From assembly GCA_029243605.1 (NCBI GenBank), contig JAQWRT010000015.1, forward strand, positions 99,392 to 163,391: a stretch of 64,000 bases of DNA, written 5' to 3'. Each line of letters opens with the position of its first letter. The stretch's first letter is position 1. The notes under the pieces were generated by a model that did no database searches, was not told the origin of the DNA, and saw only the letters and a list, made by a program, of their open reading frames with translations. A program made the translations under genes and the position numbers. The stretch comes from Myxococcota bacterium. Its GTDB lineage: Bacteria; Myxococcota_A; UBA9160; UBA4427. This document shows positions 1-15,896 of the stretch, one piece after another.

Positions 1-1
1 C

Positions 2-1516
2 GTCGAGGAGGCCGGTCTCTCGGGCCTTTGGGCGAGTTCGCTGACCCTCTCCTGCGCCGCGGGTCTGCGGGATAACAGTGAACTCACCATGACCGAGGTG
101 CTGGAGGTGCTCGAGAGCATCACCGCCCGGGCGAATATCCCGATCCTCTTCGACGGCGATACGGGCTACGGCCAGTTCAGTCATTTTCAGCAGCTGGTTC
201 GCAAGCTCTGCGTTCGCCGAGTGGGCGGCGTTTGCATCGAGGATAAAATTTTCCCGAAGACCAACTCCTTCCTGCGCTCGGAGGGACAATCCCTGGCGCC
301 GGTGGAAGAGTTCGCGGGCAAGCTTCGCGCGGGCAAGGACGCTCAGACGGATCCTGATTTCGTCGTGGTGGCCCGAACCGAGGCCTTGATTGTTGGTCTG
401 GATACCGCAGCGGCTATCGATCGCGCCGAGCGATACGTGGACGCGGGCGCCGATGCGATCCTGATTCACTCCAAGGAACGCACCTTTGCTCAGGTTCAAG
501 ATTTCATGTCGAAGTGGAGCGGCCGGGCCCCGGTGGTCTGTGTGCCCACCACGTATTACAGCACGCCCATGGAGGCCTTCGATCAGGCGGGCGTTTCCCT
601 GGTGATCTGGGCGAATCATATGCTGCGCGCGGGGATCGGTGCCATGCAGTCTGTGGCGAACGAGATCGGTGCAAAGGGAACGGCGCGAGATCTCGAGGAT
701 GCAATCGCTCCGGTCAAGGAAGTCTTCCGACTCCAGGATGCCGACGGTCTGCTCGAGGGTGAGAAGACTTATCTGCACAAGGAGTCCGGGGTGTCGGCTC
801 TCGTGTTGGCTGCGTCCCGGGGTACGGGTCTCGATGAGCTTACGTCGGATCGGCCCAAGGCGATGATTCCCGTTTCGGGCATGCCGGCCATCGAGAAAAT
901 GCTGCAGAGTATGCGTGCCGAGGGCATCAAGGATATTTCTGTGGTTCGTGGCTACCGGCCCGAGGCCCTCGCACCGGCGGGCGCGAAATTCTTCGACAAC
1001 CCCGATTGGGAAGAGAACGGCGAATTGGGATCACTGGCTGTGGCCCGAGACGCGATCAGGGGCGACACGGTCATCGCCTACGGCGATGTGGTCTTCAAGC
1101 GCTATATCCTGCACCTGCTGCTCTCGTCCGATGCACCCATCACCCTGGTGGTGGACGGCTCGCGTTCCTTCCTCGAGTCGGGACGCAGTGTCGACCGGGT
1201 GAAGGTTTCCGGTCCGGCTCCGAGCGCGTACGACGAATCTGAGAACTGGCTGGAAGCCGCCTCCGAGGGCTTGGCAGAGGATATGACCCACGGGGAGTGG
1301 ATCGGCATGCTTCGGGTTCGCGGTGAGGGGGTGGAGTCGTTCCAAGAGGCTCTGGACTCGACCTTGGCCCGGCCCGGGAGCGGCCAACTCGACCTGTGCG
1401 CGCTGCTCGACGAGATCGCCCAGGCCGACCCTCGTGCCATCCGGGTCATTTATATTCATGGCGGCTGGATCGATATCAACAGCCTGGCCGATGTCGCTCG
1501 CAGCGGCGACGTCTGA
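2..1516 (+). CDS. pepM: Phosphoenolpyruvate mutase (PepM) fused to a C-terminal LicC/MobA-like nucleotidyltransferase domain; 5' partial, continues upstream of the window
   Basis: The frame is open from nt 2 (VEEAGLSGLWASSLTLSCAAGLRDNSELT precedes the track Met at 89), so the N-terminus lies off-window. PEP-mutase/isocitrate-lyase superfamily motifs: ILFDGDTGYG, GVCIEDKIFPKTNSF, VVARTEAL, GADAILIHSK. From about nt 800 the sequence becomes an NTP-transferase fold (ALVLAASRGTGL..DRPKAMIPV..IAYGDVVF). Confidence 0.85.
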   Translation, partial: VEEAGLSGLWASSLTLSCAAGLRDNSELTMTEVLEVLESITARANIPILFDGDTGYGQFSHFQQLVRKLCVRRVGGVCIEDKIFPKTNSFLRSEGQSLAPVEEFAGKLRAGKDAQTDPDFVVVARTEALIVGLDTAAAIDRAERYVDAGADAILIHSKERTFAQVQDFMSKWSGRAPVVCVPTTYYSTPMEAFDQAGVSLVIWANHMLRAGIGAMQSVANEIGAKGTARDLEDAIAPVKEVFRLQDADGLLEGEKTYLHKESGVSALVLAASRGTGLDELTSDRPKAMIPVSGMPAIEKMLQSMRAEGIKDISVVRGYRPEALAPAGAKFFDNPDWEENGELGSLAVARDAIRGDTVIAYGDVVFKRYILHLLLSSDAPITLVVDGSRSFLESGRSVDRVKVSGPAPSAYDESENWLEAASEGLAEDMTHGEWIGMLRVRGEGVESFQEALDSTLARPGSGQLDLCALLDEIAQADPRAIRVIYIHGGWIDINSLADVARSGDV

Positions 1517-1558
1517 ACCCCTTGCCAGGCCGACTTCGGCCGAGCGGAGGCTCCACCC

Positions 1559-2743
1559 TTGCCCCTCGATCCGCAAGTTCTCTTTCGCGCGCTGCTCGGT
1601 GCGGGAATCACCGGCCTTGCCGGCGTTCCTTGCTCCATCCTCAACCATCTGACGCTTGAGGCCGAAGCATCGACGGAGATCGATTATATCCCGGCCTCGG
1701 TCGAAGGTGAGGCGGTCTCCGCCGCCGCGGGTATGTGGCTCGGGGGTGGGCTGGGCGCCGCAATGATGCAGAACTCCGGGCTGGGGAACGCGGTGAACCC
1801 GTTGGCTTCTCTCTCGGTCCCCTATGAGATTCCCGTGCTGATGATCGTCTCCTGGCGGGGCGAGCCGGGTAAGAAGGATGCGGTTCACCACTATCCCATG
1901 GGAGCGGCGACTCCGGGCCTCTTCGAGTTGCTCGATATTCCGGCGACGGTGCTTCGCGAAGAGACAGATCTGGATTCCGCGGTCAAAGATGCGGTGGCTT
2001 ATATGCGTAAGGAGCGTCGCCCTGCGGCGCTGATTGTTCCGCGCGGCCTCTTTCAGAAGCCTTCCGCCGACGGGGATGGCGAAGGGACTCGCCGGGCGGC
2101 TCCGATCCTGGCCCGGGAAGTCATTTCCGAGGCCCCTCGGGCTCGGGCGTTCGGCGGCGGGGAGTTGCCGAGTCGAACCGAAGTCCTGGGTGCCTGGCTG
2201 GAGCGTTACCCCGAGGCCCTTGCGGTTTCGACTACCGGCTTCATGTCCCGAGAGGTTTCCTCACACGGGATGGTGGACCGACATTTTCCCATGCAGGGTT
2301 CCATGGGCTTTGCCTCGGCCATCGCTCTGGGGCTCGAGCGCAGCGCGCCCGGCGGCCGACCCGTCCACGTCCTCGACGGAGACGGAGCGCTGATCATGCG
2401 TCTGGGCAGCCTCGCCACCATCGGCGCTCTGGCCCCCCGGGCCTTTACCCACGTGGTGGTCGATAATGGAACCTACGCCTCCACCGGAGGCCAGCTTACA
2501 GTTTCGCCCCATGTGGACTTTCCTGCTGCGGCCCTGGCCTGTGGCTACCGGGCAGCGGCTCACTGTCGCGGAGTCGGTGGTCTCGCGGAAGCGCTGGAGT
2601 GGGCCGGGAGCGAGGCCGGGCAAGGTCCTGTTCTGCTCCAGATTGCGGTGGACGAGCGGGAAGCCGAAGGCCTCGAGCGGCCGGCGCTTTCGCCCCAGGA
2701 GATCGCGTTGGCCTTTCGGGATGCCGTGGCAGGTCGGGGTTGA
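1559..2743 (+). CDS. ppd: Phosphonopyruvate decarboxylase (thiamine-diphosphate dependent)
   Basis: TTG start 8 nt after GGAGG (1546-1550). Ppd-type N-terminus GITGLAGVPCSIL and a TPP-binding region LDGDGALIMRLGSLATIG..VVVDNGTYASTGGQ. It sits immediately downstream of pepM, the canonical pairing. Confidence 0.85.
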   Translation: MPLDPQVLFRALLGAGITGLAGVPCSILNHLTLEAEASTEIDYIPASVEGEAVSAAAGMWLGGGLGAAMMQNSGLGNAVNPLASLSVPYEIPVLMIVSWRGEPGKKDAVHHYPMGAATPGLFELLDIPATVLREETDLDSAVKDAVAYMRKERRPAALIVPRGLFQKPSADGDGEGTRRAAPILAREVISEAPRARAFGGGELPSRTEVLGAWLERYPEALAVSTTGFMSREVSSHGMVDRHFPMQGSMGFASAIALGLERSAPGGRPVHVLDGDGALIMRLGSLATIGALAPRAFTHVVVDNGTYASTGGQLTVSPHVDFPAAALACGYRAAAHCRGVGGLAEALEWAGSEAGQGPVLLQIAVDEREAEGLERPALSPQEIALAFRDAVAGRG

Positions 2744-3504
2744 TGACCGACCGACCGAAAGCGGCGGTGATCTTGGCGGCGGGTATGGGAACGCGGCTTA
2801 AGAATGTTTTCTCGGATCGCCCCAAGGGCTTCGTGGAAATCGGCGGAGAGGGGTTGATCCATCGCTCGGTTCGCTTGCTCCAGGAAAGGGGCATCGAGCG
2901 GATCGTCATTGTTTCTGGCCATATGGGGTCGGCTTACGAAGCCCTGGCCGCCGAGCTTCCTGGTTTGGAGGTGGTTGAGAACGCTGAGTTCGCCACCACC
3001 GGCAGCATGGCGTCGCTGGCCCGTGCCCTCGAAGCCGTGAATGAAGATTTCCTTCTCCTCGAGAGCGACCTCTTCTACGAAGAGCGTGCCCTGGATGTCC
3101 TCTTGGAGGACGAAGCGCCCGATATCCTCCTGGCCTCAGGTCCTACCGGTGCCACCGATGAGGTCTGGATTGAAGCCTCCTCCGGCTGCCTTCAGAGCAT
3201 GTCCAAGGATCCCGCCGAACTCGGCGAGGTCTACGGAGAACTCGTGGGCATCGTTCGTATTTCGCATGCCCTGGCTCGGGAGATGGTCAGAGCCTATGAG
3301 CGCTTTGTCGAGGAAAACGGCCATGGCCAGATGGCGTATGAGACCGACGCCCTGGTCGAAGCCGCGGGCCAGCGCCCGGTGGCTCTACGCCTGGTTCCCG
3401 ACCTGCTCTGGGGCGAAGTCGACTACGAACACCACTACCTCCGGGTCCGAGATGAGGTGTGGCCCCGCTGGGCTTCCGGCCGGGCTGCCGATCATTCGTC
3501 ATAG
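2743..3504 (+). CDS. LicC/PntC-like nucleotidyltransferase (putative phosphonate or phosphoalcohol cytidylyltransferase)
   Basis: The ATG at 2743 overlaps the ppd stop (TGATG at 2741-2745). Nucleotide-binding loop AVILAAGMGTRL, followed by DRPKGFVEIGG and a C-terminal WGEVDYEHHY. The 48 upstream codons of track ORF 2599..3504 overlap ppd and are Arg/Gly-rich shadow. Confidence 0.8.
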   Translation: MTDRPKAAVILAAGMGTRLKNVFSDRPKGFVEIGGEGLIHRSVRLLQERGIERIVIVSGHMGSAYEALAAELPGLEVVENAEFATTGSMASLARALEAVNEDFLLLESDLFYEERALDVLLEDEAPDILLASGPTGATDEVWIEASSGCLQSMSKDPAELGEVYGELVGIVRISHALAREMVRAYERFVEENGHGQMAYETDALVEAAGQRPVALRLVPDLLWGEVDYEHHYLRVRDEVWPRWASGRAADHSS

Positions 3505-3554
3505 CCCTCGAGCCGCGAACTCGGCGCGCAAAATTTAGTTCACAGGAGAAAAGC

Positions 3555-4670
3555 ATGGATATGCCCAAGCGAAACGTCTTGCTCAACCCAGGCCCGGCGA
3601 CGACCACCGATTCGGTGAAGGCGGCTCTGGTGATCTCCGATATCTGTCCCCGGGAGCGCAGTTTTTGCGATCTCTATTCCGATGTTCGAAAGCGCCTTGC
3701 GGCCCTGGCGGGTGATCCCGACCAGGTGGTTGCGATTCCCGTAGTGGGCAGTGGGACCACAGTGCTCGAGGCGGGTCTGGTTAGCCTGATCCCTTCGGGT
3801 GGCCGGGTGCTGATTCTCGACAACGGAGACTATGGGACACGCTTGGCGGCAATCGCGGCCGCCCACGGCATCGACCACCGGCGCGTAGAATTGGGATGGG
3901 GGCAGCGGATCGATTTTGAGGCCCTCGATGCCGTACTCGCCGAAGAGCAGGGGAGGGCGACCCACCTCTTCGCCATCCATCACGAAACGAGCTCGGGCCT
4001 CCTCAATCCCTTGGACGCCCTGGTGGAGAGAGCCCACGCTCACGGTCTCAAATTGATGCTCGATGCCATGTCGAGTTTTGCGGCGATGCCCATCGAGGTG
4101 GGTGAACACGCGGTGGACATGCTCTTCTCGAGCTCAAATAAGTGTGTCCAGGGGATGGCGGGGCTGGGCATTGCCATCACCACCCGGGCGCTGCTCGACG
4201 AGGTTCGCCCGACGCCTCGGCGCTGCTACGTGTTGGACCTGGTGGCCGAGCACGATCATCTCGAGAAGACGGGCCAGAGCCGCTTTACCGTTCCTCCCCA
4301 GGTGGTATCGGCGCTTCATCAGGCGCTCGTCGAACTCGAGGCAGAAGGGATCCCCGCGCGCCAGAAGCGCTATCAGGAGAGTATGCAGACCCTGATGGCG
4401 GGGCTGGCTGAACTGGGCTTTGAATTCCTGCTCGAGGACGAGGACCAGAGCGAGATTCTGGTGGCTATCCACGAGCCGAGCGGGGACTGGTACGATTTTG
4501 ATCGCATGCACGATGCTCTCGATGCCGAGGGCTTCACCATCTATCCCGGCAAGCCCGGAGCCCAGCCGACCTTCCGGTTGGCGGTGCTGGGGGCCATCGA
4601 TGCCCGAGATATCGAGAACTTTCTTGCCGCCCTGGGTCGCTACCTCGAAGGCGTGAAGGGAAGCGCCTGA
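3555..4670 (+). CDS. phnW: 2-aminoethylphosphonate:pyruvate aminotransferase (class V aminotransferase)
   Basis: AGGAGA (3544-3549) lies 5 nt upstream of the ATG at 3555. N-terminus NVLLNPGPATT and PLP-lysine region SSSNKCVQG are typical of PhnW/AepZ. Operon context with pepM and ppd. Confidence 0.85.
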   Translation: MDMPKRNVLLNPGPATTTDSVKAALVISDICPRERSFCDLYSDVRKRLAALAGDPDQVVAIPVVGSGTTVLEAGLVSLIPSGGRVLILDNGDYGTRLAAIAAAHGIDHRRVELGWGQRIDFEALDAVLAEEQGRATHLFAIHHETSSGLLNPLDALVERAHAHGLKLMLDAMSSFAAMPIEVGEHAVDMLFSSSNKCVQGMAGLGIAITTRALLDEVRPTPRRCYVLDLVAEHDHLEKTGQSRFTVPPQVVSALHQALVELEAEGIPARQKRYQESMQTLMAGLAELGFEFLLEDEDQSEILVAIHEPSGDWYDFDRMHDALDAEGFTIYPGKPGAQPTFRLAVLGAIDARDIENFLAALGRYLEGVKGSA

Positions 4671-4671
4671 T

Positions 4672-5586
4672 TTGAAGCAGGAGATCGCGCTTCGCTTGCT
4701 TCTGACCCTCGGCGCCATCTTCGCGGTGGCCGGGGCTTGGGTGCTGGGCCAGTGGGCCGTGCGGGGTCGGACAGCTTCCCAATCCCGAATGGGGACGCGC
4801 TTCCTTGTGGAAGTCGGCATCCTGGCCGGAGTCTGGGGCCCGGCTTATTTGGGTGGCGGCTGGCTCTTGGCGGGAGTTCTAGTCCTCGCCTGGCTCTGCA
4901 CGCGGGAACTCTACGCCACCCTGAAGGTCGGCGGGGAGCGTCCGTGGGCCGGGGTGGGGGTCGCCGTGACGCTCGGCGCGATTCTTTTCGTTTACCAGTC
5001 GCCGGATGCCGCCGGCTGGCTCTTTCCCGTGGCTCTCGGGCTCTATGGGGCGCTGCGCTGGATCGTTTCCTCCCGCCAGGCCGCCCCCGACTCGCCCCTG
5101 GCCCGGGTGACCAGCACGGGACTCGGCTTTGTCTACCCCGGCTTGTGCCTCGCCGTCTTTCTTTCTCTTGGGCTGCGGGAAGAGGGCTTCGGCTATGCGA
5201 TCTTCTTCTACGGCCTGGTCGAGGCCAATGACGTCTTCGCCTACCTCGTGGGAAGCGGGATCGGCAAGCGGAAAATTTTTCCGGTGTTGAGTCCCAATAA
5301 AACCCTGGAAGGCGTTGTGGGTGGGCTCTTGGGGACCGTGGCTGTGGGCTTCGCTTTTTCCTTCGCTGTGCCCGATTTTGGCCCGTTGCGCGTCGCGAGC
5401 GCAGCGCTTCTGATCGGTTTGGCAGGGCTCGGGGGTGATCTTTTTGCCTCGGCGCTCAAGCGACGTGCCGGGGTCAAGGACTACGGCAACCTGGTCCCTA
5501 CTCAGGGCGGCGTGCTGGACGTTTACGACGCATTCTTCTTCGTAACCCCGGTCTTTTACGGTTTCCTAGAACTCACCTCGGGTTGA
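4672..5586 (+). CDS. CdsA-family (CTP_transf_1) integral membrane cytidylyltransferase-like protein, divergent signature
   Basis: TTG start 1 nt after the phnW stop. Multi-pass hydrophobic protein. Family region SPNKTLEGVVGG...GDLFASALKRRAGVKDYGNLVPTQGGVLDVYD resembles the CdsA signature, but it has Q for the usual H and V for the usual R (signature recalled from memory). Confidence 0.75.
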   Translation: MKQEIALRLLLTLGAIFAVAGAWVLGQWAVRGRTASQSRMGTRFLVEVGILAGVWGPAYLGGGWLLAGVLVLAWLCTRELYATLKVGGERPWAGVGVAVTLGAILFVYQSPDAAGWLFPVALGLYGALRWIVSSRQAAPDSPLARVTSTGLGFVYPGLCLAVFLSLGLREEGFGYAIFFYGLVEANDVFAYLVGSGIGKRKIFPVLSPNKTLEGVVGGLLGTVAVGFAFSFAVPDFGPLRVASAALLIGLAGLGGDLFASALKRRAGVKDYGNLVPTQGGVLDVYDAFFFVTPVFYGFLELTSG

Positions 5587-5623
5587 TCCGAGGGTGATAG
5601 GCTGGGGGAGGAGGGGTAGCCCC

Positions 5624-6373
5624 GTGCGATACACACTCGCCGACGTGAAGGCGTCCTACGGACCCGAGAAGGCCTGGGCCGAGATGCAGGGTGATCTGCC
5701 CTGCTATCTCATCTATCGCCCGATTTCCTTTTGGGTGGCTTTGCCCTTTCTCTGGTTGGGGATCCCCGTGCTCGTGATGACGAGCTTCTCTCTGGTGATC
5801 GCGCTCAGCCTTCCTGCCATGGCCTATTGGGGGGGAGAGCACGCCTATCTCGGGGTGGCGGGCCTGGGCTTCCTCTATCACGTCATGGACTGTGTGGATG
5901 GCAACATGGCGCGCACCCTGGGCCGCACGAGCCGCCTGGGCGCGATTCTCGACGGGACCATCGATATGAGCTTTTGGTGCCTGCTCTTGCTCTCGCTTGG
6001 ACTCCTTGTGGACGGTCAGGCCGGGGGGTTCTGGGACGGTCACGCCGTCGCGCTCTCCCTGGGGCTCGCAGTGCTCTTGCTCCTCAATCGCCAGACGCGC
6101 GACAATTTCAGCCTGCAAAATCGAGATGCCACGTATTTTCGCAGTGAGATTCCCGAGCGGCTCAGCCTCGGCGATCGCCTCATGATGGCGGTGGTCGGCC
6201 TCGAGTTCGTCTACGTCTTTGCCATAGCCCTGGGCGGGTGGTTCGGAGGGCTGGAGTGGGTTCTGCTCGGCATTGCGATCTACGTCGGCCTGATGTTCCT
6301 CGGGGCCGTCGGGCTCACATGGATTCAGGCGGCTCGTCTGGATCGGGATCCCCCGCCGCAAGATCCTCGTTGA
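5624..6373 (+). CDS. CDP-alcohol phosphatidyltransferase family protein
   Basis: Intact family motif D-x2-D-G-x2-A-R-x8-G-x3-D-x3-D (DCVDGNMARTLGRTSRLGAILDGTID) and several TM segments. I prefer the GTG at 5624, about 7 nt after a GGGGAGGAGGGG run, over the track start at 5594. Confidence 0.8.
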   Translation: MRYTLADVKASYGPEKAWAEMQGDLPCYLIYRPISFWVALPFLWLGIPVLVMTSFSLVIALSLPAMAYWGGEHAYLGVAGLGFLYHVMDCVDGNMARTLGRTSRLGAILDGTIDMSFWCLLLLSLGLLVDGQAGGFWDGHAVALSLGLAVLLLLNRQTRDNFSLQNRDATYFRSEIPERLSLGDRLMMAVVGLEFVYVFAIALGGWFGGLEWVLLGIAIYVGLMFLGAVGLTWIQAARLDRDPPPQDPR

Positions 6374-7904
6374 GCGAGCGGAACCAAGTTCGGTTTCGCT
6401 TGTAGTAGTCCAGAAAACTTTGGTAGCGGCTGTCGTAGAGTTCACGGTTCCCGGGGTTGGGCTCGAAGGTATCCGTGACTTCGACGAGATCGCTCATGGC
6501 GTCGAGTTGGTCGATTTCGCCCAGGGCGCGTAGGGCGATCAGTGCAGCGCCGCGAACCCCGCAGAATTGCGGGTTGGCCACCCGCTCGACCCTTTTGCCG
6601 AGGACATCGGCCATGATCTGGCACCAGATATCGCTTTGGGCGCCGCCGCCGGTGATTCGAACGCTGGGGACCGGGGCTCGGAGAAGTTTCTCCACGACGC
6701 CCAGGGCCCACAGGTTGTTGTACGCAACGCCCTCGAAGACCGCGCGCAGCAGGTGTCCCCGGTCGTGATCGAGAGAGAGATTGACGAACCCGCCGCGCAC
6801 GGTGGCATCGTCGACCGGGACGCGTTCGCCCATGAGCCAAGGGAAGAAGAACACGCCCCCCGCACCCGCCTCGCAGGTTTCGACCAGGTGGTTGATGGTG
6901 TCGTAGTCCGTCTCGCTGCCGAGGATTTTCTTGCGCACCCATTCCATCGAGGCACCGGCTGTCTCCTGGGTGGCAATTAGGATGTACTTGCCATATTCCG
7001 CCGCGCAAAGGGTGCCCGTGGCCGCGAAGGGATTGACGGCTCGGTCGTCGAGGTGGGTCGCGACCCACGAACTGGTGCCGAGGTAGATATGCACGTCTCC
7101 ATCCTTGACGGCCCCCGAACCTACGGCGCACGAGGGGACGTCGCCGGCGCCGGCAATCACGGGAACGCCCGGGGGCAAGCCGAGATCCGAGGCGGCCTCG
7201 GCACCGAGGTCACCGACAATCTCGGTGGAGGGCAGGACTTCGGGGAAGCGGTCGGTGTCGAGATCCAGCATGCGAAGAATCTCGGCCGACCAGCCGAGTT
7301 CTCCCTTGCGAGTCTTGAAGAGCCACCCACCGCTGGCCAGATCGTAGGTGGTCGTGGACCGCCCGGTGCAGCGCATGACGAGGTAGTCCTTGACGTCGAG
7401 CAGGCAATCGGTCTGCTCCCACAACTCGGGCCTTTCGTCGCGTAGCCATATAAACTTGGAAATCGTGTCGCGTCCGGCCAGGCTGGGCACGCCATTGGTG
7501 GCGCGTAGCCACTTGATGAGTCGGGGGAGTCCGTAGCCTGCGACCCGGGGCTGCCCCGAGGTTATCTCCCGGGCCTGTTCTCGGGAGCGCGTGTCCAGCC
7601 AGATCATGGCGTTCATGAGGGGCTTGCCCGCGGAGTCCACGGGCAGAACCCCGAACATCTGGCACGAGAAGACGACGGCGGAGACCTGAGCCGGGTCGAA
7701 GCTGGATTGGCTCCAGAGTTCCCGGGCGGCGGAAGAGATTGCGCTCCACCACGCGTAGGGGTCCTGTTCGGCCCATCCCGCCTCGGGGTAGATCACCTCG
7801 AGGCTGCTGCGGGCGCAGTCGCGGATCTCGCCCGTATGAGAAACCAGGGCGACCTTGATTTCGGACGTGCCCACATCGATCGCCAGGACATTTTGTTCGC
7901 TCAT
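6315..7904 (-). CDS. FGGY-family carbohydrate kinase (xylulokinase/glycerol-kinase-like)
   Basis: The ATG at 7904 gives MSEQNVLAIDVGTSEIKVALV, the FGGY N-terminal phosphate-binding motif. C-terminal motif ITGGGAQSDIWCQIMADVLG. The 80 extra codons of the track ORF (to 8144) run into devA and look like shadow sequence. Confidence 0.85.
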   Translation of the reverse strand: MSEQNVLAIDVGTSEIKVALVSHTGEIRDCARSSLEVIYPEAGWAEQDPYAWWSAISSAARELWSQSSFDPAQVSAVVFSCQMFGVLPVDSAGKPLMNAMIWLDTRSREQAREITSGQPRVAGYGLPRLIKWLRATNGVPSLAGRDTISKFIWLRDERPELWEQTDCLLDVKDYLVMRCTGRSTTTYDLASGGWLFKTRKGELGWSAEILRMLDLDTDRFPEVLPSTEIVGDLGAEAASDLGLPPGVPVIAGAGDVPSCAVGSGAVKDGDVHIYLGTSSWVATHLDDRAVNPFAATGTLCAAEYGKYILIATQETAGASMEWVRKKILGSETDYDTINHLVETCEAGAGGVFFFPWLMGERVPVDDATVRGGFVNLSLDHDRGHLLRAVFEGVAYNNLWALGVVEKLLRAPVPSVRITGGGAQSDIWCQIMADVLGKRVERVANPQFCGVRGAALIALRALGEIDQLDAMSDLVEVTDTFEPNPGNRELYDSRYQSFLDYYKRNRTWFRSLNEDLAAGDPDPDEPPESM

Positions 7905-8025
7905 TGACTGAAAATTCCCTCGCCCATTCGCCGGCCCGGCCTCGCGCGACATCCCAGGACTTTGACCGTAGCCGAGGGGTCGATGCAGGGAAACGGTGGG
8001 GTGCCGGGTCGTGATTCGCCAGATC

Positions 8026-8727
8026 TCATTCGGAGAGCCGCACGTCTGAGTCCAGTTGACCATCGACGAGATTGATGAGTCGGTCCGCCGACTCAAAAAC
8101 TCGGGCATCCTGGGTGACCATGAGTACGGTGGTGCCTCGCTCATGGGCGAGCTCAGCGAGTAACCCGAGAACGATCTCGGTGTTTTCCCCGTCGAGGGCC
8201 GCCGTGGGTTCGTCGGCGAGGACCAGGGCCGGGCGGTGTACCAGGGCTCGGGCGATGGCGACTCTCTGCCTTTGGCCGCCGGAGAGTTGGTGGGGGCGAT
8301 AGTCGAGCCGTTCCCCCAGGCCGAGCTGGGTCAGCAGCGCACGAATGCGGTCGTCCATTTGGTCGGCGGCTTCGGGGTGAAGGTCTCCAGCCATCTGGAC
8401 GCTCTGAAAGGCCGTGAGTGCAGGGAAGAGGTTGTGGAGCTGAAAGATGAAGCCGAGTTGCTGGCGATAGCTTTCGAGTCCCGGGCTCTCGAGGGTATTG
8501 AGGTCGTGACCCAGGACATTCAGTTGTCCGCCCTGGGGCCGGCGCAGGGCACCCACCAAGGAGAGCAGGGTTGTCTTACCCGAGCCCGAAGGCCCCGTCA
8601 TGATCGCGAACTCACCGGGTTCGAGAGAGAGATCAATCTCGAAGAGAACCTGCTTGGCGGTTTCGCCCGTTCCGAACGAGTAGTCCAGCCCTGCGATTTC
8701 AATGGCCTTGTTCGCTGCGGAAGTCAT
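8026..8727 (-). CDS. ABC exporter ATP-binding subunit, DevA-like
   Basis: Walker A GPSGSGKTT, ABC signature LSGGQRQRVAIARAL, Walker B LVLADEPTAALD. The ATG at 8727 has a GGAG about 6 nt upstream. Operon context with DevC/DevB-like genes. Confidence 0.9.
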   Translation of the reverse strand: MTSAANKAIEIAGLDYSFGTGETAKQVLFEIDLSLEPGEFAIMTGPSGSGKTTLLSLVGALRRPQGGQLNVLGHDLNTLESPGLESYRQQLGFIFQLHNLFPALTAFQSVQMAGDLHPEAADQMDDRIRALLTQLGLGERLDYRPHQLSGGQRQRVAIARALVHRPALVLADEPTAALDGENTEIVLGLLAELAHERGTTVLMVTQDARVFESADRLINLVDGQLDSDVRLSE

Positions 8728-8803
8728 GGAAGCTCCAGGCGCTCGCTTGATCGAAAATTCTCGAGTTGAGGATACATTCGTTTCGCCCGGGCTTCCTCCC
8801 GGC

Positions 8804-9943
8804 TTAGAAGAGTTCAGCAGGCTCAAGATTGCGGACTTTGCGCAGGGCGAGGGTTCCGGCCAACGTGCACATGCTGACGGCGAGGAGACCCACATTGAGA
8901 GCATCGCCCAAGCTTATGCCCGCTGGGAGCCCACTGCTCCAGCCAAGGACTGCCAGCATGAACGACCCCAGGACGAGAGAAGGCACGAAGCCCAGGGCGG
9001 AAAGCAGCACGGACTCGACCATGACGACGAATTGGATGTAGCTATCTCCGTAGCCCATGGCCTTGAGCGTGGCGAATTCGGCGAGGTGGTCGAGGACTTC
9101 GGTGTAGAGAATCTGATAACAGATGACGACTCCGACCGCGAAGCCGAGGGCAACGCCGACGAGCAAGATGACACTAATGGGGGTGCCCGTGCGCCAATAG
9201 TCGAGGTCGCGGTCGATCAGTTGGGCTTTCGAGAAAGCTCGCACATCGCCGGGAAGTGTGAGAGCGAGATTTTCGAGGACCCGATTCATTTCGGCGCCAG
9301 GCTTGAGCCTGAGTAGGGCAATTTCGATCCAGTCAGGGCTCTGGCGTGTCAGCTCGAAAAAGGTTTCGTCCGAGACAAGAAGGCTGCCATCGACTTCGAA
9401 ATCCGTGCCCAAGGGAAAGCTGCCGACGATTTCGATTTCCCGGAGGCTCACCTGGGCGATGCCATCGGGTAATTTGCCGTAGGAATCCCGGGCGTGGGAG
9501 TCCAGAAATGCCGTTCCGATGCGATTGAGCTTGTCGACGTTTTCGTTTACCTCGTCGATGAGAAAGGTGGGCTCCCTGGGATTGAAGCCGATCACCCGAA
9601 TCGGGTGCAGGGTCTCCTCCTCGAGATTCTTCCACTGTTCGAGAGCGATCCAGAGAGGGGAAGCGCTTTCGACCCCCTCGACGGAAAGGGCCTGATAGAG
9701 CCTCTCCTTGTGCATTCTGTTTCGGGCAAGGAAGGGGTCCTTCTCCTTGTTGATGACGAGGATATCCGCATCGACTTCGCGCAGGAGCTGGATCGCGCTG
9801 TCCAAAAGTGCGTTTCGAAAACCGATTTGGAGCAGCATCAGGAGCAGGGCGAATGTGACTCCGCCCACTGAGGCGATGAGGCGCCCTCGCTCGTGCATCA
9901 GGAGCCTGAACGAAAAAACGACTGCCCTCATGAGTTTGAGCAT
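8804..9943 (-). CDS. ABC exporter permease, DevC/FtsX-like (paralog 2)
   Basis: N-terminal TM (RLIASVGGVTFALLLMLLQIGF), a large periplasmic region, and a C-terminal FtsX-type TM bundle. Its start shares one nt with the stop of the upstream permease (TGATG on the minus strand at 9945-9941). Confidence 0.85.
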   Translation of the reverse strand: MLKLMRAVVFSFRLLMHERGRLIASVGGVTFALLLMLLQIGFRNALLDSAIQLLREVDADILVINKEKDPFLARNRMHKERLYQALSVEGVESASPLWIALEQWKNLEEETLHPIRVIGFNPREPTFLIDEVNENVDKLNRIGTAFLDSHARDSYGKLPDGIAQVSLREIEIVGSFPLGTDFEVDGSLLVSDETFFELTRQSPDWIEIALLRLKPGAEMNRVLENLALTLPGDVRAFSKAQLIDRDLDYWRTGTPISVILLVGVALGFAVGVVICYQILYTEVLDHLAEFATLKAMGYGDSYIQFVVMVESVLLSALGFVPSLVLGSFMLAVLGWSSGLPAGISLGDALNVGLLAVSMCTLAGTLALRKVRNLEPAELF

Positions 9944-11127
9944 CAGAAGAGCTCCGCCGGGTCAGCTCGCTGGAGCCGGCGAGCCGAGATCAGCGCCGAC
10001 AGGGAACACATGATGAGGCTGAGAGCCAGAATGCCCAGTACCAAGCTTGGCGTCATGTAGATCGGGAGATCCGTAATGTCCTGGATCAGGGGGAAGGCGA
10101 CGAGGCTGAGGAAAAGAGCCGGGCCAAATCCGAGCAGGGCGTAGATCCAGGCCTGTTCGATGATGTAGCGAATTAACTGTTTTTGGGAATAACCCATGGC
10201 GCGGAGTGTGGCGTAGAGGGGGAGGTGATTGCGAATATCGGTGGAGAGAATCTGGAAGAGCACGACCAACCCCACGAGGAACCCGGCCAGGGTACCCATT
10301 CCAAAGATGTCACCGACGGCGGTGTTCTCCACCCAGTGCTGAGTTTGCAGATCGTTCAGTTCGCTTTGGGTGATGACACGGACGTCCTTGGGAAGAGTCT
10401 GCTTGAGGGCCTCGGCGACCTGGTCGACATCGCTGCCCGGTGCGAGGCGAACCAATCCGAGATGGGGTGAGTCCAGGGGGTGGTTGGCGAAGAAGCGGGA
10501 GAATGTGTCGTCGCTCATAAGCATGGCGCCGGCGGCGAGGAAACCGACGCCGAGTTTGAAGTCGCCGACGACCTGGGCGCTCTGGTTGCGCACTTCGACC
10601 TTGCCGTCGGGATCTCGGGGGCCGCATTTATCGCGGGTCATTCGATCGAGGAGGACGGTGCTGGTGGGTTTCAGGGCCTCTAATTGCTCGGTCACCCCGG
10701 GCAGGATCAACGGCGAAGTGTCCGTGTCCGCGGCGATGGGGAAGCCGATGGCAAAGAGCCGACAGTTGGCACCGTTGACCGGGTCTCGCCAATTCGCGTA
10801 GCGAAAGTAGACGGGGGTCGTCCCGATGACTTCGGGTTGGGTTTGGGCCTGGTAGAGGCGGCTGGCGGGGATCGTGCCCGTGGCCCCCAGATAGGCGAAG
10901 CGCGGTGAGATCAAGACGATGTCGGCGTCGAAGCGGCCCGAAACAGCGAGCGCCGTATTCAGCACTGCACCGTAGAAGCCGAGTTGGACGAACATGACCA
11001 GGATTGCGAAGCCGATGCCGGCGGCGGCCACCGCGGTACGGGTCTTCTTGTGCGACACCAGTTGGATGGAGAAGGGGACCGGTCGCGAGGGGCCGCTCCG
11101 TCGTGTGTACGCGGATACGGGGCTCAA
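9943..11127 (-). CDS. ABC exporter permease, DevC/FtsX-like (paralog 1)
   Basis: Same architecture as the neighbouring permease (TAVAAAGIGFAILVMFVQLGF ... C-terminal FtsX-type TMs, ending PAELF like its paralog). The TTG start overlaps the devB-like stop (TTGA). Confidence 0.85.
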   Translation of the reverse strand: MSPVSAYTRRSGPSRPVPFSIQLVSHKKTRTAVAAAGIGFAILVMFVQLGFYGAVLNTALAVSGRFDADIVLISPRFAYLGATGTIPASRLYQAQTQPEVIGTTPVYFRYANWRDPVNGANCRLFAIGFPIAADTDTSPLILPGVTEQLEALKPTSTVLLDRMTRDKCGPRDPDGKVEVRNQSAQVVGDFKLGVGFLAAGAMLMSDDTFSRFFANHPLDSPHLGLVRLAPGSDVDQVAEALKQTLPKDVRVITQSELNDLQTQHWVENTAVGDIFGMGTLAGFLVGLVVLFQILSTDIRNHLPLYATLRAMGYSQKQLIRYIIEQAWIYALLGFGPALFLSLVAFPLIQDITDLPIYMTPSLVLGILALSLIMCSLSALISARRLQRADPAELF

Positions 11128-12146
11128 GGCTCTTCGGCTGGCCCCAGGTGAATACGGAGCTGACCCTCGAGGTTGGTCATCCTTTCGGCCAACTCGTTCT
11201 TCTCGAGGAGAACCCGTACCTGGACGATGCGCAGCCCCCGAGGCGCGGTGGGGTCCTCGCCGGTCACGCTATTGCTGAAGATCATTTCGCCCACCGAAGA
11301 GACGCTCCCCTCCAAGGAGTCGGGCAATGCGGGGCTCGTGAAGGTTGCCTTCTGGCCCACTTCCACCAACCGGATTTCGTTGGCATGCACCTCGGCGACG
11401 GCCACCATGTTGTTCGTGTCCCCGATGCTCAGCACCGGGTTCATGTCGACGCGCTCGCCCTGCTTCATCAGGATCCGTAGGACACGGCCGGCGATGGGCG
11501 ACTTGATCATGGTGCTTCCCATGCGCGACTCGGCCTGGGTGACCTGGTTTTGGGCTTCCCGAAGGACGAGGTCCACGTTGGCGGTTTTCCGTTCGAGGAG
11601 GGCGCGGGCTTCGTGGAGATGCTCCTCGGCCCGCCGTACCTGGAGCTGGGCGTCCCGGAACTCCTTCCCCGCGCTAAAACCTTTGCGGCTCAGCCCCTCC
11701 TGGCTCGTGACCTCCTCCCGGGCGTAGGCGAGTTCGGCTTCGATGGCGCGGACTCGGGCGAGTTGGGCGTCCACCTCCAGGGGTTCGAGGCGCGCGCGCT
11801 CCAAGTCGATACGTGCGGCCTCGAGTTCGGCGGCGCGGAGCGGGTAGCTTCCGAGCAAGACGAGTACCTGGTCGGTGAGGACATGACTCCCCTCCTGGAC
11901 GAGGATCTGCTGGATCACGTCGTTGGAAGCGGCGGCGACGTTCACGACCCGACTCGAGGGCTCCAGGCGAGCGAGGGAAACCAGGCTCGTACGCTCGGGT
12001 GTTGTTGAGGCCGGCGCTTTGGTCGCCGGGGACGGGGCGGGTTCGGCCAGAGACTCGCCGCAGCCCACCGTCCCAAGGGCCCAGAGGCCGATCGTGGCGA
12101 GCACGAGGGCCGCTTTCCGAATCTGGGTGTTGTCGGGCGTAGGCAT
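11124..12146 (-). CDS. HlyD/DevB-family periplasmic adaptor (membrane fusion) lipoprotein
   Basis: Signal peptide with lipobox-type cysteine (LWALGTVGC). Long coiled-coil-like Ala/Glu/Arg/Leu region, then a beta-barrel C-terminus typical of membrane fusion proteins. First gene of the exporter operon. Confidence 0.85.
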   Translation of the reverse strand: MPTPDNTQIRKAALVLATIGLWALGTVGCGESLAEPAPSPATKAPASTTPERTSLVSLARLEPSSRVVNVAAASNDVIQQILVQEGSHVLTDQVLVLLGSYPLRAAELEAARIDLERARLEPLEVDAQLARVRAIEAELAYAREEVTSQEGLSRKGFSAGKEFRDAQLQVRRAEEHLHEARALLERKTANVDLVLREAQNQVTQAESRMGSTMIKSPIAGRVLRILMKQGERVDMNPVLSIGDTNNMVAVAEVHANEIRLVEVGQKATFTSPALPDSLEGSVSSVGEMIFSNSVTGEDPTAPRGLRIVQVRVLLEKNELAERMTNLEGQLRIHLGPAEEP

Positions 12147-15842: not shown

Positions 15843-15896
15843 CGCTGGAACCAAAGCCCGGATCCTAAGCCAGGAACCCAAGCCAGGGAATTCACG

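What the first reader, a model, noticed from the sequence alone, without database searches (positions are those of the whole stretch)
1..6373. Complete AEP -> nucleotide-activated AEP -> lipid head-group transfer operon: candidate bacterial phosphonolipid pathway
Six co-directional genes are packed with 0-50 nt gaps (TGATG overlap at 2741-2745, 1-nt gap at 4671), which implies a single transcript. PepM, Ppd and the class-V transaminase form the established route PEP -> phosphonopyruvate -> phosphonoacetaldehyde -> 2-aminoethylphosphonate. LicC/PntC-type nucleotidyltransferases are known to convert AEP to CMP-AEP. In place of glycan or teichoic-type transferases, the operon ends with two polytopic membrane lipid enzymes. 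One is a CdsA-family protein. The other is a CDP-alcohol phosphatidyltransferase with an intact DCVDGNMARTLGRTSRLGAILDGTID motif. The simplest reading is a Kennedy-like transfer of the phosphonate head group from CMP-AEP to diacylglycerol or another lipid alcohol, which would give a C-P analogue of phosphatidylethanolamine. As far as I know, a defined bacterial gene set for phosphonoglycerolipid assembly has not been shown experimentally.
Basis: partly seen in the sequence, partly recalled or inferred. Interest (0 to 1): 0.8.

Follow-up and report, generated by a model that had tools for sequence, protein, structure and literature searches.

The report
Phosphonate lipid-decoration operon, marine Myxococcota variant
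This operon from an uncultured marine myxobacterium makes the C-P compound 2-aminoethylphosphonate, activates it with CMP and very probably attaches it to a membrane lipid. It is a new variant of a cluster type predicted since 2013 whose product has never been shown chemically.

Summary
In detail: six tightly packed + strand genes at 1-6373 with the stated junctions and an intact CDP-alcohol transferase motif.

1. Gene 1 is a PepM-nucleotidyltransferase fusion, so there are two NTase domains.
2. The operon continues upstream of the window, with a GT4 glycosyltransferase in the source contig.
3. The "CdsA" is a YnbB-like paralogue. In about 20 related loci it belongs to a conserved, phosphonate-independent module: FGGY sugar kinase, PIP-synthase-like transferase and a DevBCA/TolC-type exporter. 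Two myxobacterial loci keep that module but have lost every phosphonate gene.

AEP synthesis and CMP-AEP formation are well supported. Gene 3 scores 169 bits against the crystallised T. denticola PntC, and all five of its key residues are conserved. Within this lineage the terminal transferase (CPT6) never occurs without PntC and stays with it when PepM and Ppd are lost. Its model best matches enzymes that use soluble CDP-alcohols. This supports a Kennedy/DIPPS-like transfer of AEP to a lipid; the acceptor is unknown.

The idea is not new. Yu 2013 and Li & Horsman 2022 describe "Group 1 phosphonolipid" clusters. This variant lacks their oxygenase and HpnL-like gene, and its transferase is not orthologous. 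Interest is moderate.

The parts
1..1516 (+). PEP mutase (PepM/Ppm, aa 1-~255 of the visible part) fused to a C-terminal NTP_transf_3 nucleotidyltransferase domain (window ~782-1513). The 5' end is cut by the window edge (about 37 codons missing).
   Evidence: TIGR02320 310.7 bits, PF13714 174.7 bits and PF12804 39.2 bits. The Ppm motif EDKIFPKTNS is present. The full-length protein is 541 aa in the source contig and in relatives. The NTase P-loop is AASRGTG instead of GxG(T/S)R, a change also seen in the Burkholderiales fusion.
1559..2743 (+). Phosphonopyruvate decarboxylase (Ppd).
   Evidence: TIGR03297 330.9 bits, above the 312.5 cut-off; TPP_enzyme_N and TPP_enzyme_C domains.
2743..3504 (+). 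PntC-type 2-aminoethylphosphonate cytidylyltransferase (makes CMP-AEP). Its start overlaps the Ppd stop (TGATG).
   Evidence: 169.4 bits, E 1.1e-48 to T. denticola Tde1415 PntC (PDB 6PD1/6PD2) over residues 6-242. Functionally tested or ligand-contacting residues R15, K25, E104, K153 and E196 are all conserved.
3555..4670 (+). AEP:pyruvate aminotransferase (AEPT, PhnW/AepZ type).
   Evidence: TIGR03301 377.9 bits, above the 360.8 cut-off. It is absent from the otherwise identical operon in L004/L005/L006/L028, L026, L027, L031 and L147.
4672..5586 (+). YnbB-like paralogue of CDP-diacylglycerol synthase ('CdsL'). It belongs to the conserved flanking lipid module and is not specific to the phosphonate module.
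   Evidence: PF01148 167.9 bits, but only 75 bits against the CdsA equivalog (cut-off 385). All TmCdsA catalytic residues are kept (D144, K167, D219, K226, D246, D249), while the signature PGHGGxxDRxD is PT[QH]GGVLD[VL]YD, invariant in 30 subfamily members. hhalign matches E. coli YnbB over 266 columns (E 4e-31) but CdsA only over the C-terminal 120. It is always next to an FGGY kinase and is retained in loci without pepM.
5624..6373 (+). 'CPT6': a lineage-restricted CDP-alcohol phosphotransferase-family membrane enzyme, the candidate CMP-AEP:lipid AEP-phosphonotransferase. An alternative GTG start lies at 5594.
   Evidence: PF01066 30.5 bits; the catalytic motif is invariant in 32 homologues. 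No NCBIfam equivalog comes near its cut-off. The family is small: 79 clusters, all uncultured Myxococcota-like. The AF2 model has pLDDT 91.5, and the best PDB matches are AF2299 and IPCT-DIPPS. In the Myxococcota clade it is never seen without PntC.
6315..7904 (-). FGGY-family sugar/polyol kinase (xylulokinase-like), convergent with gene 6. It is the conserved partner of CdsL.
   Evidence: TIGR01312 344.9 bits, below the 380.25 cut-off. It is adjacent to CdsL in nearly every subfamily locus (the one exception, L027, has it about 8 kb away) and lies on the same strand in L012, L031, L032 and L033.
8026..8730 (-). DevA-type ABC exporter ATPase.
   Evidence: TIGR02982 287 bits, just below the 295.8 cut-off. 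The position is conserved in relatives.
8804..9943 (-). DevC-type ABC exporter permease.
   Evidence: TIGR01185 316.8 bits, above the 290.35 cut-off.
9943..11127 (-). Second DevC-type permease.
   Evidence: TIGR01185 283.4 bits, just below the cut-off.
11124..12146 (-). DevB-type membrane fusion protein.
   Evidence: TIGR02971 170.7 bits, above the 129 cut-off. A TolC-like OEP gene lies upstream of the operon in the source contig and in relatives.

Best explanation
The operon has two parts. One is a phosphonate head-group module that sits inside, and is co-transcribed with part of, an older lipid locus.

Well supported by homology:
- PepM (fusion protein) and Ppd convert PEP to phosphonoacetaldehyde.
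- AEPT makes 2-aminoethylphosphonate (AEP).
- The stand-alone NTase is a PntC that makes CMP-AEP from CTP and AEP.

Inferred:
- CPT6 (5624-6373) uses CMP-AEP as a soluble CDP-alcohol-type donor. It transfers the aminoethylphosphonyl group to a hydroxyl of a membrane lipid and releases CMP. This is the chemistry of choline/ethanolamine phosphotransferases and of IPCT/DIPPS.
- My single best guess for the acceptor is diacylglycerol, which would give the C-P analogue of phosphatidylethanolamine. The acceptor is not determined.
- The CdsA-family gene is not part of this chemistry. It is a YnbB-like CTP-dependent liponucleotide synthase. It works with the adjacent FGGY kinase and a PIP-synthase-like transferase to build another CDP-DAG-derived lipid.
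- The DevBCA/TolC-type exporter next door probably moves the lipid product(s) of the locus to the outer membrane.
- The role of the PepM-fused NTase domain is unknown.
For: AEP pathway:
- The Ppd and AEPT equivalog HMMs score above cut-off; the truncated PepM scores just below (310.7 vs 319.55 bits). The Ppm motif is present.

PntC:
- 169 bits to Tde-PntC, with all five key residues conserved.

Coupling of CPT6 to PntC:
- In about 20 related Myxococcota loci, CPT6 occurs only where PntC occurs.
- L021 and L026 have lost PepM and Ppd but keep GT4, PntC and CPT6.
- L011/L023 and L022 have lost GT4, PepM, Ppd, PntC, AEPT and CPT6 together. They keep CdsL, FGGY, the small CDP-OH transferase and DevBCA/OEP. 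In a CdsL NJ tree (no bootstrap support computed) they nest inside the pepM-positive clade, which indicates co-loss.
- More distant DCxDGNMA-type transferases sit directly next to an NTase and/or PepM, Ppd or AEPT in 10 of 46 metagenome loci, or 7 of about 19 loci with at least 8 kb.

CPT6 itself:
- The catalytic motif is invariant.
- The AF2 model has pLDDT 91.5. Top PDB matches are AF2299 and IPCT-DIPPS. The best sequence hit in the PDB is CEPT1. All of these use soluble CDP-alcohols.

CdsL is not phosphonate-specific.

Exporter assignment.

Published precedent for the same logic in other pepM clusters: PMC8942020, PMC5987646, PMC6697681.
Against: - No biochemical data exist for any member of the CPT6 family.
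- Two loci (L015, L019) have the full AEP pathway and PntC but no CPT6 within view.
- CPT6-like genes at 36-45% identity occur without a visible NTase (L099, L149), next to Stealth, GT4 or Dev genes.
- Structural ranking against PIP synthases, which use CDP-DAG, is close: E 1e-4 versus 8e-3, with TM about 0.6 for both. NCBIfam's weak best hits for gene 6 are AIP/PIP synthases.
- CPT6 lies immediately after a CDP-DAG-synthase-like gene, which would also fit a CDP-DAG donor.
- Nothing identifies the acceptor. GT4 co-varies with the module, which hints at a glycolipid rather than DAG.
Confidence: 0.45

Rival explanations
1. The donor chemistry is the same (CMP-AEP used by CPT6), but the acceptor is not DAG. 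Instead it is the specialised lipid or glycolipid made by the surrounding locus: CdsL, the FGGY kinase, the PIP-synthase-like transferase and optionally GT4. The product would be an AEP-decorated phospho(glyco)lipid, exported by DevBCA/TolC.
For: - The phosphonate module is always embedded in this locus.
- GT4 occurs only in loci that have PntC and is co-lost with it.
- The exporter is DevBCA-type. DevBCA is annotated as the heterocyst glycolipid exporter family.
- The closest structural relative, DIPPS, transfers to a polyol phosphate and not to DAG.
- CdsA and YnbB can make sugar-PP-DAG glycolipid precursors (PMC6362211).
Against: - CPT6 is present in loci without GT4 (the L004 group).
- The product of the host locus is unknown.
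- No precedent is known to me for a CDP-OH_P_transf enzyme decorating a glycolipid sugar.
Confidence: 0.25
2. CPT6 is a conventional phosphatidyltransferase. It takes CDP-DAG from the adjacent CdsL and transfers phosphatidyl to an alcohol, or to a phosphonate or phosphate oxygen. CMP-AEP is used by a different, unidentified transferase.
For: - CdsL and CPT6 are adjacent, 37 nt apart.
- Gene 6's weak best NCBIfam hits are AIP/PIP synthases and ClsA.
- PIP synthases are close structural matches.
- CPT6-like genes occur without an NTase in L099 and L149.
- L015 and L019 manage without CPT6.
Against: - AEP has no hydroxyl, and this lineage has no oxygenase to add one.
- CdsL persists without CPT6, whereas within the clade CPT6 never persists without PntC.
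- No other candidate CMP-AEP transferase (LicD, for example) is seen in these loci.
Confidence: 0.15
3. The phosphonate ends up on a polysaccharide or protein, or is released as a soluble metabolite. The two membrane enzymes would then be general phospholipid genes that merely share a transcript with the phosphonate genes.
For: - Most characterised AEP decorations in bacteria are on glycans (PMC6697681).
- CdsL is indeed independent of the phosphonate genes.
- A GT4 gene is part of the module.
Against: - CPT6 is a narrow family of 79 clusters tied to PntC. It is not a housekeeping enzyme.
- No LicD, Wzx/Wzy or polysaccharide genes lie in the 10 kb flanks.
- The small PIPS-like transferase already fills the housekeeping-like slot.
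Confidence: 0.1

Closest known systems
'Group 1 phosphonolipid' / 'Burkholderiales_CDP-OH' pepM gene-cluster families (Yu et al. 2013 as cited in PMC8942020; Li & Horsman 2022, PMC8942020; Nostoc example in PMC5987646)
   Same: Both have a Ppm fused to a PF12804 NTase, plus Ppd, AEPT, a second stand-alone PntC-type NTase and a CDP-alcohol phosphatidyltransferase-family membrane protein. The predicted logic is the same: CMP-activated aminophosphonate transferred to a lipid. The fused NTase domain is orthologous (39% identity, same AASRGxG P-loop).
   Different: This cluster has no 2OG-Fe(II) oxygenase, so the head group is AEP and not 1-hydroxy-AEP. It has no LPG_synthase_TM/HpnL-like gene. The CDP-OH transferase shares only the catalytic motif with the Burkholderiales one (hhalign, 48 columns, Prob 84%). 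The stand-alone PntC is T. denticola-like and only about 25% identical to the Burkholderiales one. Here a YnbB-like gene sits in the operon, and the neighbourhood is FGGY/DevBCA rather than hopanoid/isoprenoid genes.
Tde1415 PntC, AEP cytidylyltransferase of Treponema denticola (PDB 6PD1/6PD2; PMC6697681)
   Same: Gene 3 aligns over the whole PntC domain (E 1e-48). The GXG(T/S)R...PK motif, K153 and the AEP-amine ligands E104 and E196 are conserved.
   Different: Gene 3 is stand-alone here, not fused to AEPT. In T. denticola the downstream transferases are thought to be LicD-like enzymes or glycosyltransferases acting on glycans.
IPCT/DIPPS and AF2299 (archaeal CDP-alcohol phosphotransferases; PDB 4MND, 4O6M/N)
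   Same: Both pair a soluble NTP_transf_3-type cytidylyltransferase with a 6-TM CDP-OH_P_transf enzyme that uses the soluble CDP-alcohol as donor. These are the best structural matches to the CPT6 model. Gene 3 also hits the IPCT part (57 bits).
   Different: Here the two activities are separate proteins. The donor would be a CMP-phosphonate. The DIPPS acceptor is inositol-1-phosphate, not a lipid. Sequence identity is about 17-21%.
Eukaryotic Kennedy-pathway choline/ethanolamine phosphotransferases (CEPT1/CHPT1; PDB 8GYW, 8ERO)
   Same: These transfer a phospho-head group from a CDP-alcohol to diacylglycerol. They are the best sequence hits to gene 6 in the PDB (E 0.004). The route AEP -> CMP-AEP -> diacylglyceryl-AEP is accepted for eukaryotes (pathway cited in PMC9765203).
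   Different: They are 10-TM eukaryotic enzymes. The structural match to the CPT6 model is poor (E 0.7-1), and only the motif region aligns.
E. coli YnbB (CdsA paralogue of the ynbABCD operon; PMC6362211)
   Same: The CdsL profile aligns with YnbB over almost its full length, including the N-terminal half (E 4e-31). Like ynbA-ynbB, it sits next to a small CDP-alcohol phosphatidyltransferase gene. YnbB and CdsA make CDP-DAG and the glycolipid precursor GlcNAc-PP-DAG.
   Different: The signature is PT[QH]GGVLD[VL]YD instead of PGHGGLLDRID. The partner transferase is PIPS-like and resembles YnbA only at the motif. The partner FGGY kinase and DevBCA exporter have no counterpart in the ynb operon.
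DevBCA-TolC glycolipid exporter of heterocystous cyanobacteria (NCBIfam TIGR01185, TIGR02971, TIGR02982)
   Same: The four genes at 8026-12146 hit the DevA, DevC (twice) and DevB models at or near their cut-offs. A TolC-like gene lies upstream.
   Different: The organism is a myxobacterium and there are two DevC paralogues. The substrate is unknown, and any link to the phosphonolipid is inferred from synteny alone.

Membership tests
PEP mutase (Ppm/PepM) | Catalytic motif EDKxxxxxNS, which separates Ppm from other isocitrate-lyase superfamily members (PMC6697681). | tested here: met
   EDKIFPKTNS is present in the translation. TIGR02320 scores 310.7 bits against a 319.55 cut-off, with about 37 N-terminal residues missing.
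Phosphonopyruvate decarboxylase | Score above the equivalog cut-off of TIGR03297, with both TPP domains. | tested here: met
   330.9 bits, above 312.5; TPP_enzyme_N and TPP_enzyme_C present.
AEP aminotransferase (PhnW/AepZ) | Score above the equivalog cut-off of TIGR03301. | tested here: met
   377.9 bits, above 360.8.
PntC (AEP cytidylyltransferase) | GXG(T/S)R-X4-8-PK motif with Arg15 and Lys25, plus Lys153 and the AEP-amine ligands Glu104 and Glu196 of Tde-PntC. | tested here: met
   In the HMMER alignment to 6PD1, gene 3 has R18, K28, E107, the SMSK lysine and the AYE glutamate at these positions.
PntC (AEP cytidylyltransferase) | Preference for AEP over phosphocholine or phosphoethanolamine in an enzyme assay. 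| not testable with these tools
   This needs purified protein.
PntC (applied to the PepM-fused NTase domain) | Canonical GXG(T/S)R phosphate-binding loop. | tested here: not met
   The loop is AASRGTG, with the Arg shifted by three positions; the PK is kept. The same variant occurs in the Burkholderiales and Roseomonas fusions. The domain scores only 21.6 bits to 6PD1.
CdsA (CDP-diacylglycerol synthase, equivalog) | Score above the NF008635 cut-off and the signature PGHGGxxDRxD. | tested here: not met
   75 bits against a 385 cut-off. The signature is PTQGGVLDVYD, invariant in the subfamily.
CTP_transf_1 superfamily (catalytically competent member) | Metal and catalytic residues of TmCdsA: D144, K167, D219, K226, D246, D249 (PMC4083444). 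| tested here: met
   All are conserved: D187, K210, D256, K263, D283 and D286 of gene 5. E222 is replaced by Ala.
YnbB-like CdsA paralogues | Homology extending through the N-terminal half, which is not shared with CdsA. | tested here: met
   hhalign covers 266 columns with YnbB (E 4e-31) against 120 C-terminal columns with CdsA (E 1.5e-21).
CDP-alcohol phosphatidyltransferase superfamily (PF01066) | Motif D-x2-DG-x2-AR-x7-8-G-x3-D-x3-D on a 6-TM fold. | tested here: met
   The motif is invariant or nearly so (D4 in at least 90%) in 32 homologues. Pfam scores 30.5 bits, above 22. The AF2 model (pLDDT 91.5) matches AF2299, DIPPS and PIPS.
CDP-alcohol phosphotransferases that use a soluble CDP-alcohol donor (CPT/EPT/DIPPS type) | Demonstrated use of a CDP-alcohol (here CMP-AEP) rather than CDP-DAG as donor. 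| tested here: inconclusive
   Top sequence and structure hits are of this type, but the margins over PIP synthases are small. Co-occurrence with PntC supports this donor type. An enzyme assay is needed.
'Burkholderiales_CDP-OH' / Group 1 phosphonolipid gene-cluster family | Seven-gene core: Ppm-PntC fusion, Ppd, AEPT, second PntC, 2OG-Fe(II) oxygenase and two phospholipid-associated genes (CDP-OH transferase plus an LPG_synthase_TM/HpnL-like protein). | tested here: not met
   Five of the seven functions are present. The oxygenase and the HpnL-like gene are absent from the source contig and from all relatives. The CDP-OH transferase is not orthologous.
DevBCA-type ABC exporter | Scores above the cut-offs of TIGR01185 (DevC), TIGR02971 (DevB) and TIGR02982 (DevA). 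| tested here: met
   DevC scores 316.8, above 290.35 (the second copy scores 283.4). DevB scores 170.7, above 129. DevA scores 287 against 295.8, marginally below.

The most novel reading that the evidence does not exclude

The proposed steps are:
1. The FGGY kinase supplies a sugar or polyol phosphate.
2. The YnbB-like CdsL and the PIPS-like transferase turn it into a DAG-(pyro)phosphate-linked lipid, analogous to MPIase 'compound I' or to phosphatidylinositol phosphate.
3. GT4 glycosylates this lipid.
4. PntC and CPT6 cap it with aminoethylphosphonate.
5. DevBCA-TolC exports it.

CPT6 would then be the first CDP-alcohol-family enzyme shown to decorate a complex lipid with a phosphonate. Marine Myxococcota would be an unrecognised source of lipid-bound marine phosphonate.
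Probability: 0.15. Interest if true: 0.75.

Novelty: new variant of a known kind. Interest (0 to 1): 0.45.

Why it matters
About half of bacterial pepM clusters are predicted to make phosphonolipids or phosphonoglycans. Yet the step after CMP-AEP has never been shown for any bacterial cluster I could find in the literature. PMC8942020 states that the products of the large lipid-type groups are uncharacterised.

This variant offers a minimal, separable test pair, PntC plus a 249-aa transferase. In nature the pair survives without PepM and Ppd (L021, L026), so it should work in a heterologous host fed AEP. A positive result would define the first bacterial CMP-AEP:lipid phosphonotransferase.

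The analysis also corrects a tempting mis-annotation. The 'CdsA' is part of a different, conserved and so far undescribed lipid/exporter locus.

The carriers are pelagic marine Myxococcota MAGs (TARA, ALOHA, Antarctic). The product would therefore add to the lipid-bound share of the marine phosphonate pool, though probably only as a minor contributor.

Tried and rejected
1. An exact look-up of the Ppd protein found nothing. The source contig was reached through gene 6 instead, but without its DNA.
2. I considered CdsL as the lineage's housekeeping CdsA sitting next to a pgsA-like gene. I set this aside because the profile aligns full-length with the YnbB paralogue, the CdsA signature is altered, the equivalog score is far below its cut-off, and the neighbouring transferase is PIPS-like rather than PgsA-like. 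It is not formally excluded, because I could not scan a whole genome for a second cdsA.
3. I considered CPT6 as an orthologue of the Burkholderiales cluster transferase or of E. coli YnbA. Both were rejected, since only the motif aligns.
4. I considered recent horizontal insertion of the phosphonate genes. There is no GC anomaly (0.63-0.64 across 1-8 kb), and the tree indicates old association with secondary losses.
5. I tried to use fold ranking to decide donor type. It was not decisive.
6. Literature searches for an experimentally shown bacterial CMP-AEP-to-lipid transfer found none. Yu et al. 2013 itself is not in the library, so it is cited only through PMC8942020 and PMC5987646.
7. The sulfatase-family gene next to the CPT6-like gene in L012 was suspected to be an EptA/LtaS-type head-group transferase. 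Its family hits are arylsulfatase-like and weak, so I dropped it.

Full report
**1. The observation**

The six + strand genes are real.
- Gene 1 runs off the 5' edge of the window to 1516.
- Ppd is 1559-2743.
- Gene 3 starts at 2743, so its ATG overlaps the Ppd stop as TGATG at 2741-2745.
- The aminotransferase (best start 3555) ends at 4670.
- The CdsA-family gene starts at 4672, a 1-nt gap.
- The last gene is 5624-6373, with an alternative GTG start at 5594.

A convergent FGGY kinase gene (6315-7904, - strand) overlaps the end of gene 6, so the transcript stops there.

| Gene | Model | Bits | Cut-off |
|---|---|---|---|
| PepM | TIGR02320 | 310.7 | 319.55 (gene truncated) |
| Ppd | TIGR03297 | 330.9 | 312.5 |
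| NTase | PF12804 | 61.7 | 27 |
| AEPT | TIGR03301 | 377.9 | 360.8 |
| CdsA-family | PF01148 | 167.9 | 24 |
| CDP-OH transferase | PF01066 | 30.5 | 22 |

The Ppm-specific motif EDKxxxxxNS is present as EDKIFPKTNS. The CDP-alcohol motif is exactly as quoted. GC content is even across the region.

**2.

Gene 1 is a fusion. Residues ~265-504 form an NTP_transf_3 domain. The full protein is 541 aa in the source contig and in relatives. About 60% of Ppm enzymes carry such fusions (PMC6697681).

The fused domain is not a typical PntC. It scores only 21.6 bits against the PntC structure. Its phosphate loop reads AASRGTG instead of GxG(T/S)R. The same variant is found in the Burkholderiales fusion. 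Its substrate is unknown.

The stand-alone gene 3 is a close homologue of the crystallised AEP cytidylyltransferase Tde1415. It scores 169 bits (E 1e-48) and aligns over residues 6-242. It retains R15, K25 and K153, whose alanine mutants lose more than 90% of activity. It also retains E104 and E196, which contact the AEP amine. Synthesis of AEP and its conversion to CMP-AEP are therefore well supported by homology.

**3. Source and relatives**

- Gene 6 is 100% identical to a JGI marine metagenome protein. On its 17-kb contig the operon is preceded by a GT4 glycosyltransferase on the same strand, a divergent 220-aa CDP-OH transferase and a TolC-like OEP gene.
- The nearest genome is the MAG "Myxococcota bacterium ANT-51" (GCA_028823175.1), with 91-98% amino-acid identity across the locus.
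- Other relatives are marine Myxococcota/"Deltaproteobacteria" MAGs from TARA, ALOHA and TMED.
- The rest of the window is ordinary chromosome: PheST, acyl-CoA enzymes and autotransporters.

**4. The neighbourhood survey changes the reading of the "CdsA" gene**

The CdsA-family protein defines a tight subfamily, with a score gap from about 190 bits down to about 100 bits for generic CdsA.
- The catalytic residues of TmCdsA are all kept (PMC4083444).
- The family signature PGHGGxxDRxD is replaced by an invariant PT[QH]GGVLD[VL]YD.
- The CdsA equivalog model scores 75 bits against a 385 cut-off.
- A profile of the subfamily aligns with E. coli YnbB, the CdsA paralogue of the ynbABCD operon, over 266 columns including the N-terminal half (E 4e-31). 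It aligns with E. coli CdsA only over the C-terminal 120 columns.

I tabulated 17 query proteins by tblastn over about 30 loci found through this gene. I call the protein CdsL.
- CdsL is next to an FGGY kinase in nearly all of these loci. They share a strand, 30-100 nt apart, in L012, L031, L032 and L033.
- CdsL is nearly always accompanied by a small CDP-OH transferase, a four-gene ABC exporter and an OEP gene.

Family scans identify these neighbours:
- The kinase is xylulokinase-like (345 bits, below cut-off).
- The small transferase is archaetidylinositol-phosphate/PIP-synthase-like (126 and 87 bits, below cut-off).
- The exporter is DevA/DevC/DevC/DevB-type: DevC 316.8 (cut-off 290.35), DevB 170.7 (cut-off 129), DevA 287 (cut-off 295.8).

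This module exists without any phosphonate gene in the closed 6.25-Mb chromosome OZ252299.1 (L011/L023), in L022, and in two Vicinamibacteria MAGs (L032, L033). In an NJ tree of CdsL (no bootstrap support computed), L011 and L022 nest inside the pepM-positive clade. They have therefore lost GT4, PepM-NT, Ppd, PntC, AEPT and gene 6 together while keeping CdsL.

My conclusion is that CdsL is not a phosphonate-pathway enzyme. It is a specialised liponucleotide synthase of an older lipid/exporter locus into which the phosphonate module is embedded. YnbB and CdsA are reported to make both CDP-DAG and the glycolipid precursor GlcNAc-PP-DAG (PMC6362211). This is a plausible model for a CdsL-kinase pair, but it remains an inference.

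**5. Gene 6 (CPT6)**

Its family is small: 79 clusters at 90% identity in the 5.8-billion-protein collection. All are uncultured and Myxococcota-like, and none has a meaningful name. The catalytic motif HVxDCxDGNMART...G...DG..D is essentially invariant. No NCBIfam equivalog comes near its cut-off.

Within the clade:
- CPT6 is present in at least 14 distinct loci, and every one has PntC.
- L021 and L026 lack PepM and Ppd but retain GT4, PntC and CPT6.
- The pepM-less loci lack CPT6.

Exceptions:
- L015 and L019 have the full AEP pathway and PntC, but no CPT6 in view.
- At 36-45% identity, CPT6-like genes occur next to Stealth, GT4 or Dev genes. One has an NTase nearby (L150) and two do not (L099, L149).

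More distant transferases share the DCxDGNMA motif. They lie beside an NTase and/or PepM, Ppd or AEPT in 10 of 46 metagenome loci, which is 7 of about 19 loci with at least 8 kb of sequence. This is a strong enrichment for a pathway found in about 5% of genomes (PMC8942020).

On structure and sequence:
- The AlphaFold model is confident (pLDDT 91.5).
- Its best PDB matches are AF2299 and IPCT-DIPPS (E 1e-4 to 9e-4), followed by PIP synthases (8e-3 and above). PSS, PgsA and CEPT1 rank lower.
- By sequence, the best PDB hit is CEPT1 (E 0.004).

Together this favours, without proving, a soluble CDP-alcohol-type donor, here CMP-AEP.

**6. Mechanism**

Well supported by homology:
- PEP -> PnPy -> PnAA -> AEP -> CMP-AEP.

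Inferred:
- CPT6 transfers aminoethylphosphonyl from CMP-AEP to a lipid hydroxyl.

Not determined:
- The acceptor. DAG is the only lipid acceptor with precedent in this enzyme family, so it is my single best guess.
- GT4 co-varies with the module, and the module is always embedded in the CdsL/FGGY/PIPS-like/DevBCA locus. An AEP-decorated phospho(glyco)lipid is therefore a serious alternative. Ceramide cannot be excluded.
- AEP has no hydroxyl and no oxygenase is present. A CDP-DAG + phosphonate-alcohol route, conceivable for the 1-hydroxy-AEP clusters of Burkholderia, is therefore unlikely here.

**7. Comparison with what is known**

These comprise a Ppm-PntC fusion, Ppd, AEPT, a 2OG oxygenase, a second PntC and two phospholipid-associated genes. 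They make up 36% of the pepM neighbourhoods in RefSeq analysed by Li & Horsman (PMC8942020). A pathway scheme has also been drawn for Nostoc and Burkholderia (PMC5987646).

I retrieved two such clusters, from Mycetohabitans pBRH01 and a Roseomonas plasmid. Their two lipid genes are a CDP-OH transferase and an LPG_synthase_TM (HpnL-like) protein, not a CdsA homologue.

The window's cluster differs in five ways:
- It has no oxygenase.
- It has no HpnL-like gene.
- Its transferase is non-orthologous.
- Its PntC is T. denticola-like.
- Its genomic setting is different.

It is therefore a new variant of a known, still only predicted, kind.

I found no paper demonstrating the lipid product or the transferase activity in bacteria. 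PMC8942020 says explicitly that the phosphonolipids of these groups have not been characterised.

**8. Verdict**

The AEP/CMP-AEP steps and a Kennedy/DIPPS-like transferase are supported. The role given to the CdsA-like gene, the claim that the operon is complete, and the implied novelty are not.
- Interest is moderate (0.45). The main value is a compact PntC + CPT6 pair that would let the missing post-CMP-AEP step be tested.
- A by-product is the recognition of a conserved YnbB-like/FGGY/PIPS-like/DevBCA lipid locus of unknown product.

Noticed in passing
window 4672-12146, with upstream genes seen in L010:1267-3491; also L011, L022, L032, L033: A conserved locus contains a YnbB-like CdsA paralogue, an FGGY (xylulokinase-like) kinase, a PIP-synthase-like CDP-OH transferase, a DevA/DevC/DevC/DevB exporter and a TolC-like OEP. 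It exists with or without the phosphonate genes, including in two Vicinamibacteria MAGs. It looks like a pathway for an exported CDP-DAG-derived lipid of unknown structure.
   Followed up: partly
L004/L005/L006/L028, L027, L031, L147 (no AEPT); L021, L026 (no PepM/Ppd); L031 (no Ppd): Relatives carry trimmed versions of the operon. Several lack the aminotransferase. Two keep only GT4, PntC and CPT6 (L021 also keeps AEPT). This suggests either AEP salvage from seawater or a different substrate for PntC.
   Followed up: partly
window 782-1513; L007:9793-10569; L008:9781-10500: The NTase domain fused to PepM has a conserved non-canonical phosphate loop, AASRGxG instead of GxG(T/S)R, and a 12-16 residue insertion. 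Both features are shared between the Myxococcota and Burkholderiales fusions (the Roseomonas fusion's loop is more divergent). Its substrate and role are unknown.
   Followed up: partly
L007 (Mycetohabitans pBRH01) and L008 (Roseomonas plasmid): The Burkholderiales-type phosphonolipid clusters sit beside isoprenoid and hopanoid genes: dxs, ispH, polyprenyl synthetase, hpnH, shc and an MMPL transporter. This hints at a hopanoid- or isoprenoid-linked acceptor in those lineages.
   Followed up: no
L099:9308-17999; L149:2178-3918; L150:281-5298: CPT6-like transferases at 36-45% identity are neighbours of Stealth-family hexose-1-phosphoryltransferases and GT4 genes. In L150 the neighbours also include a LicD-like gene, an NTase and a PAP2 phosphatase.
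   Followed up: partly
L012:16323-18638: In the ALOHA MAG the CPT6-like gene has moved into the exporter operon, next to a 527-aa sulfatase-family (PF00884) protein.
   Followed up: partly
window 19760-22897 and 29829-33119 (- strand): Two large autotransporter genes of 1045 and 1096 aa, with a PF03797 beta-domain; the first also has PATR repeats.
   Followed up: no
window 12001-16000: GC rises to 0.70-0.72 over the amidohydrolase and CoA-transferase genes. Long ORFs overlap on both strands here, which is probably a GC-driven artefact of ORF calling.
   Followed up: no
window 49055-53366: An SNF2-family helicase (979 aa, - strand) lies back-to-back with a SAM-dependent methyltransferase (457 aa, + strand).
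   Followed up: no
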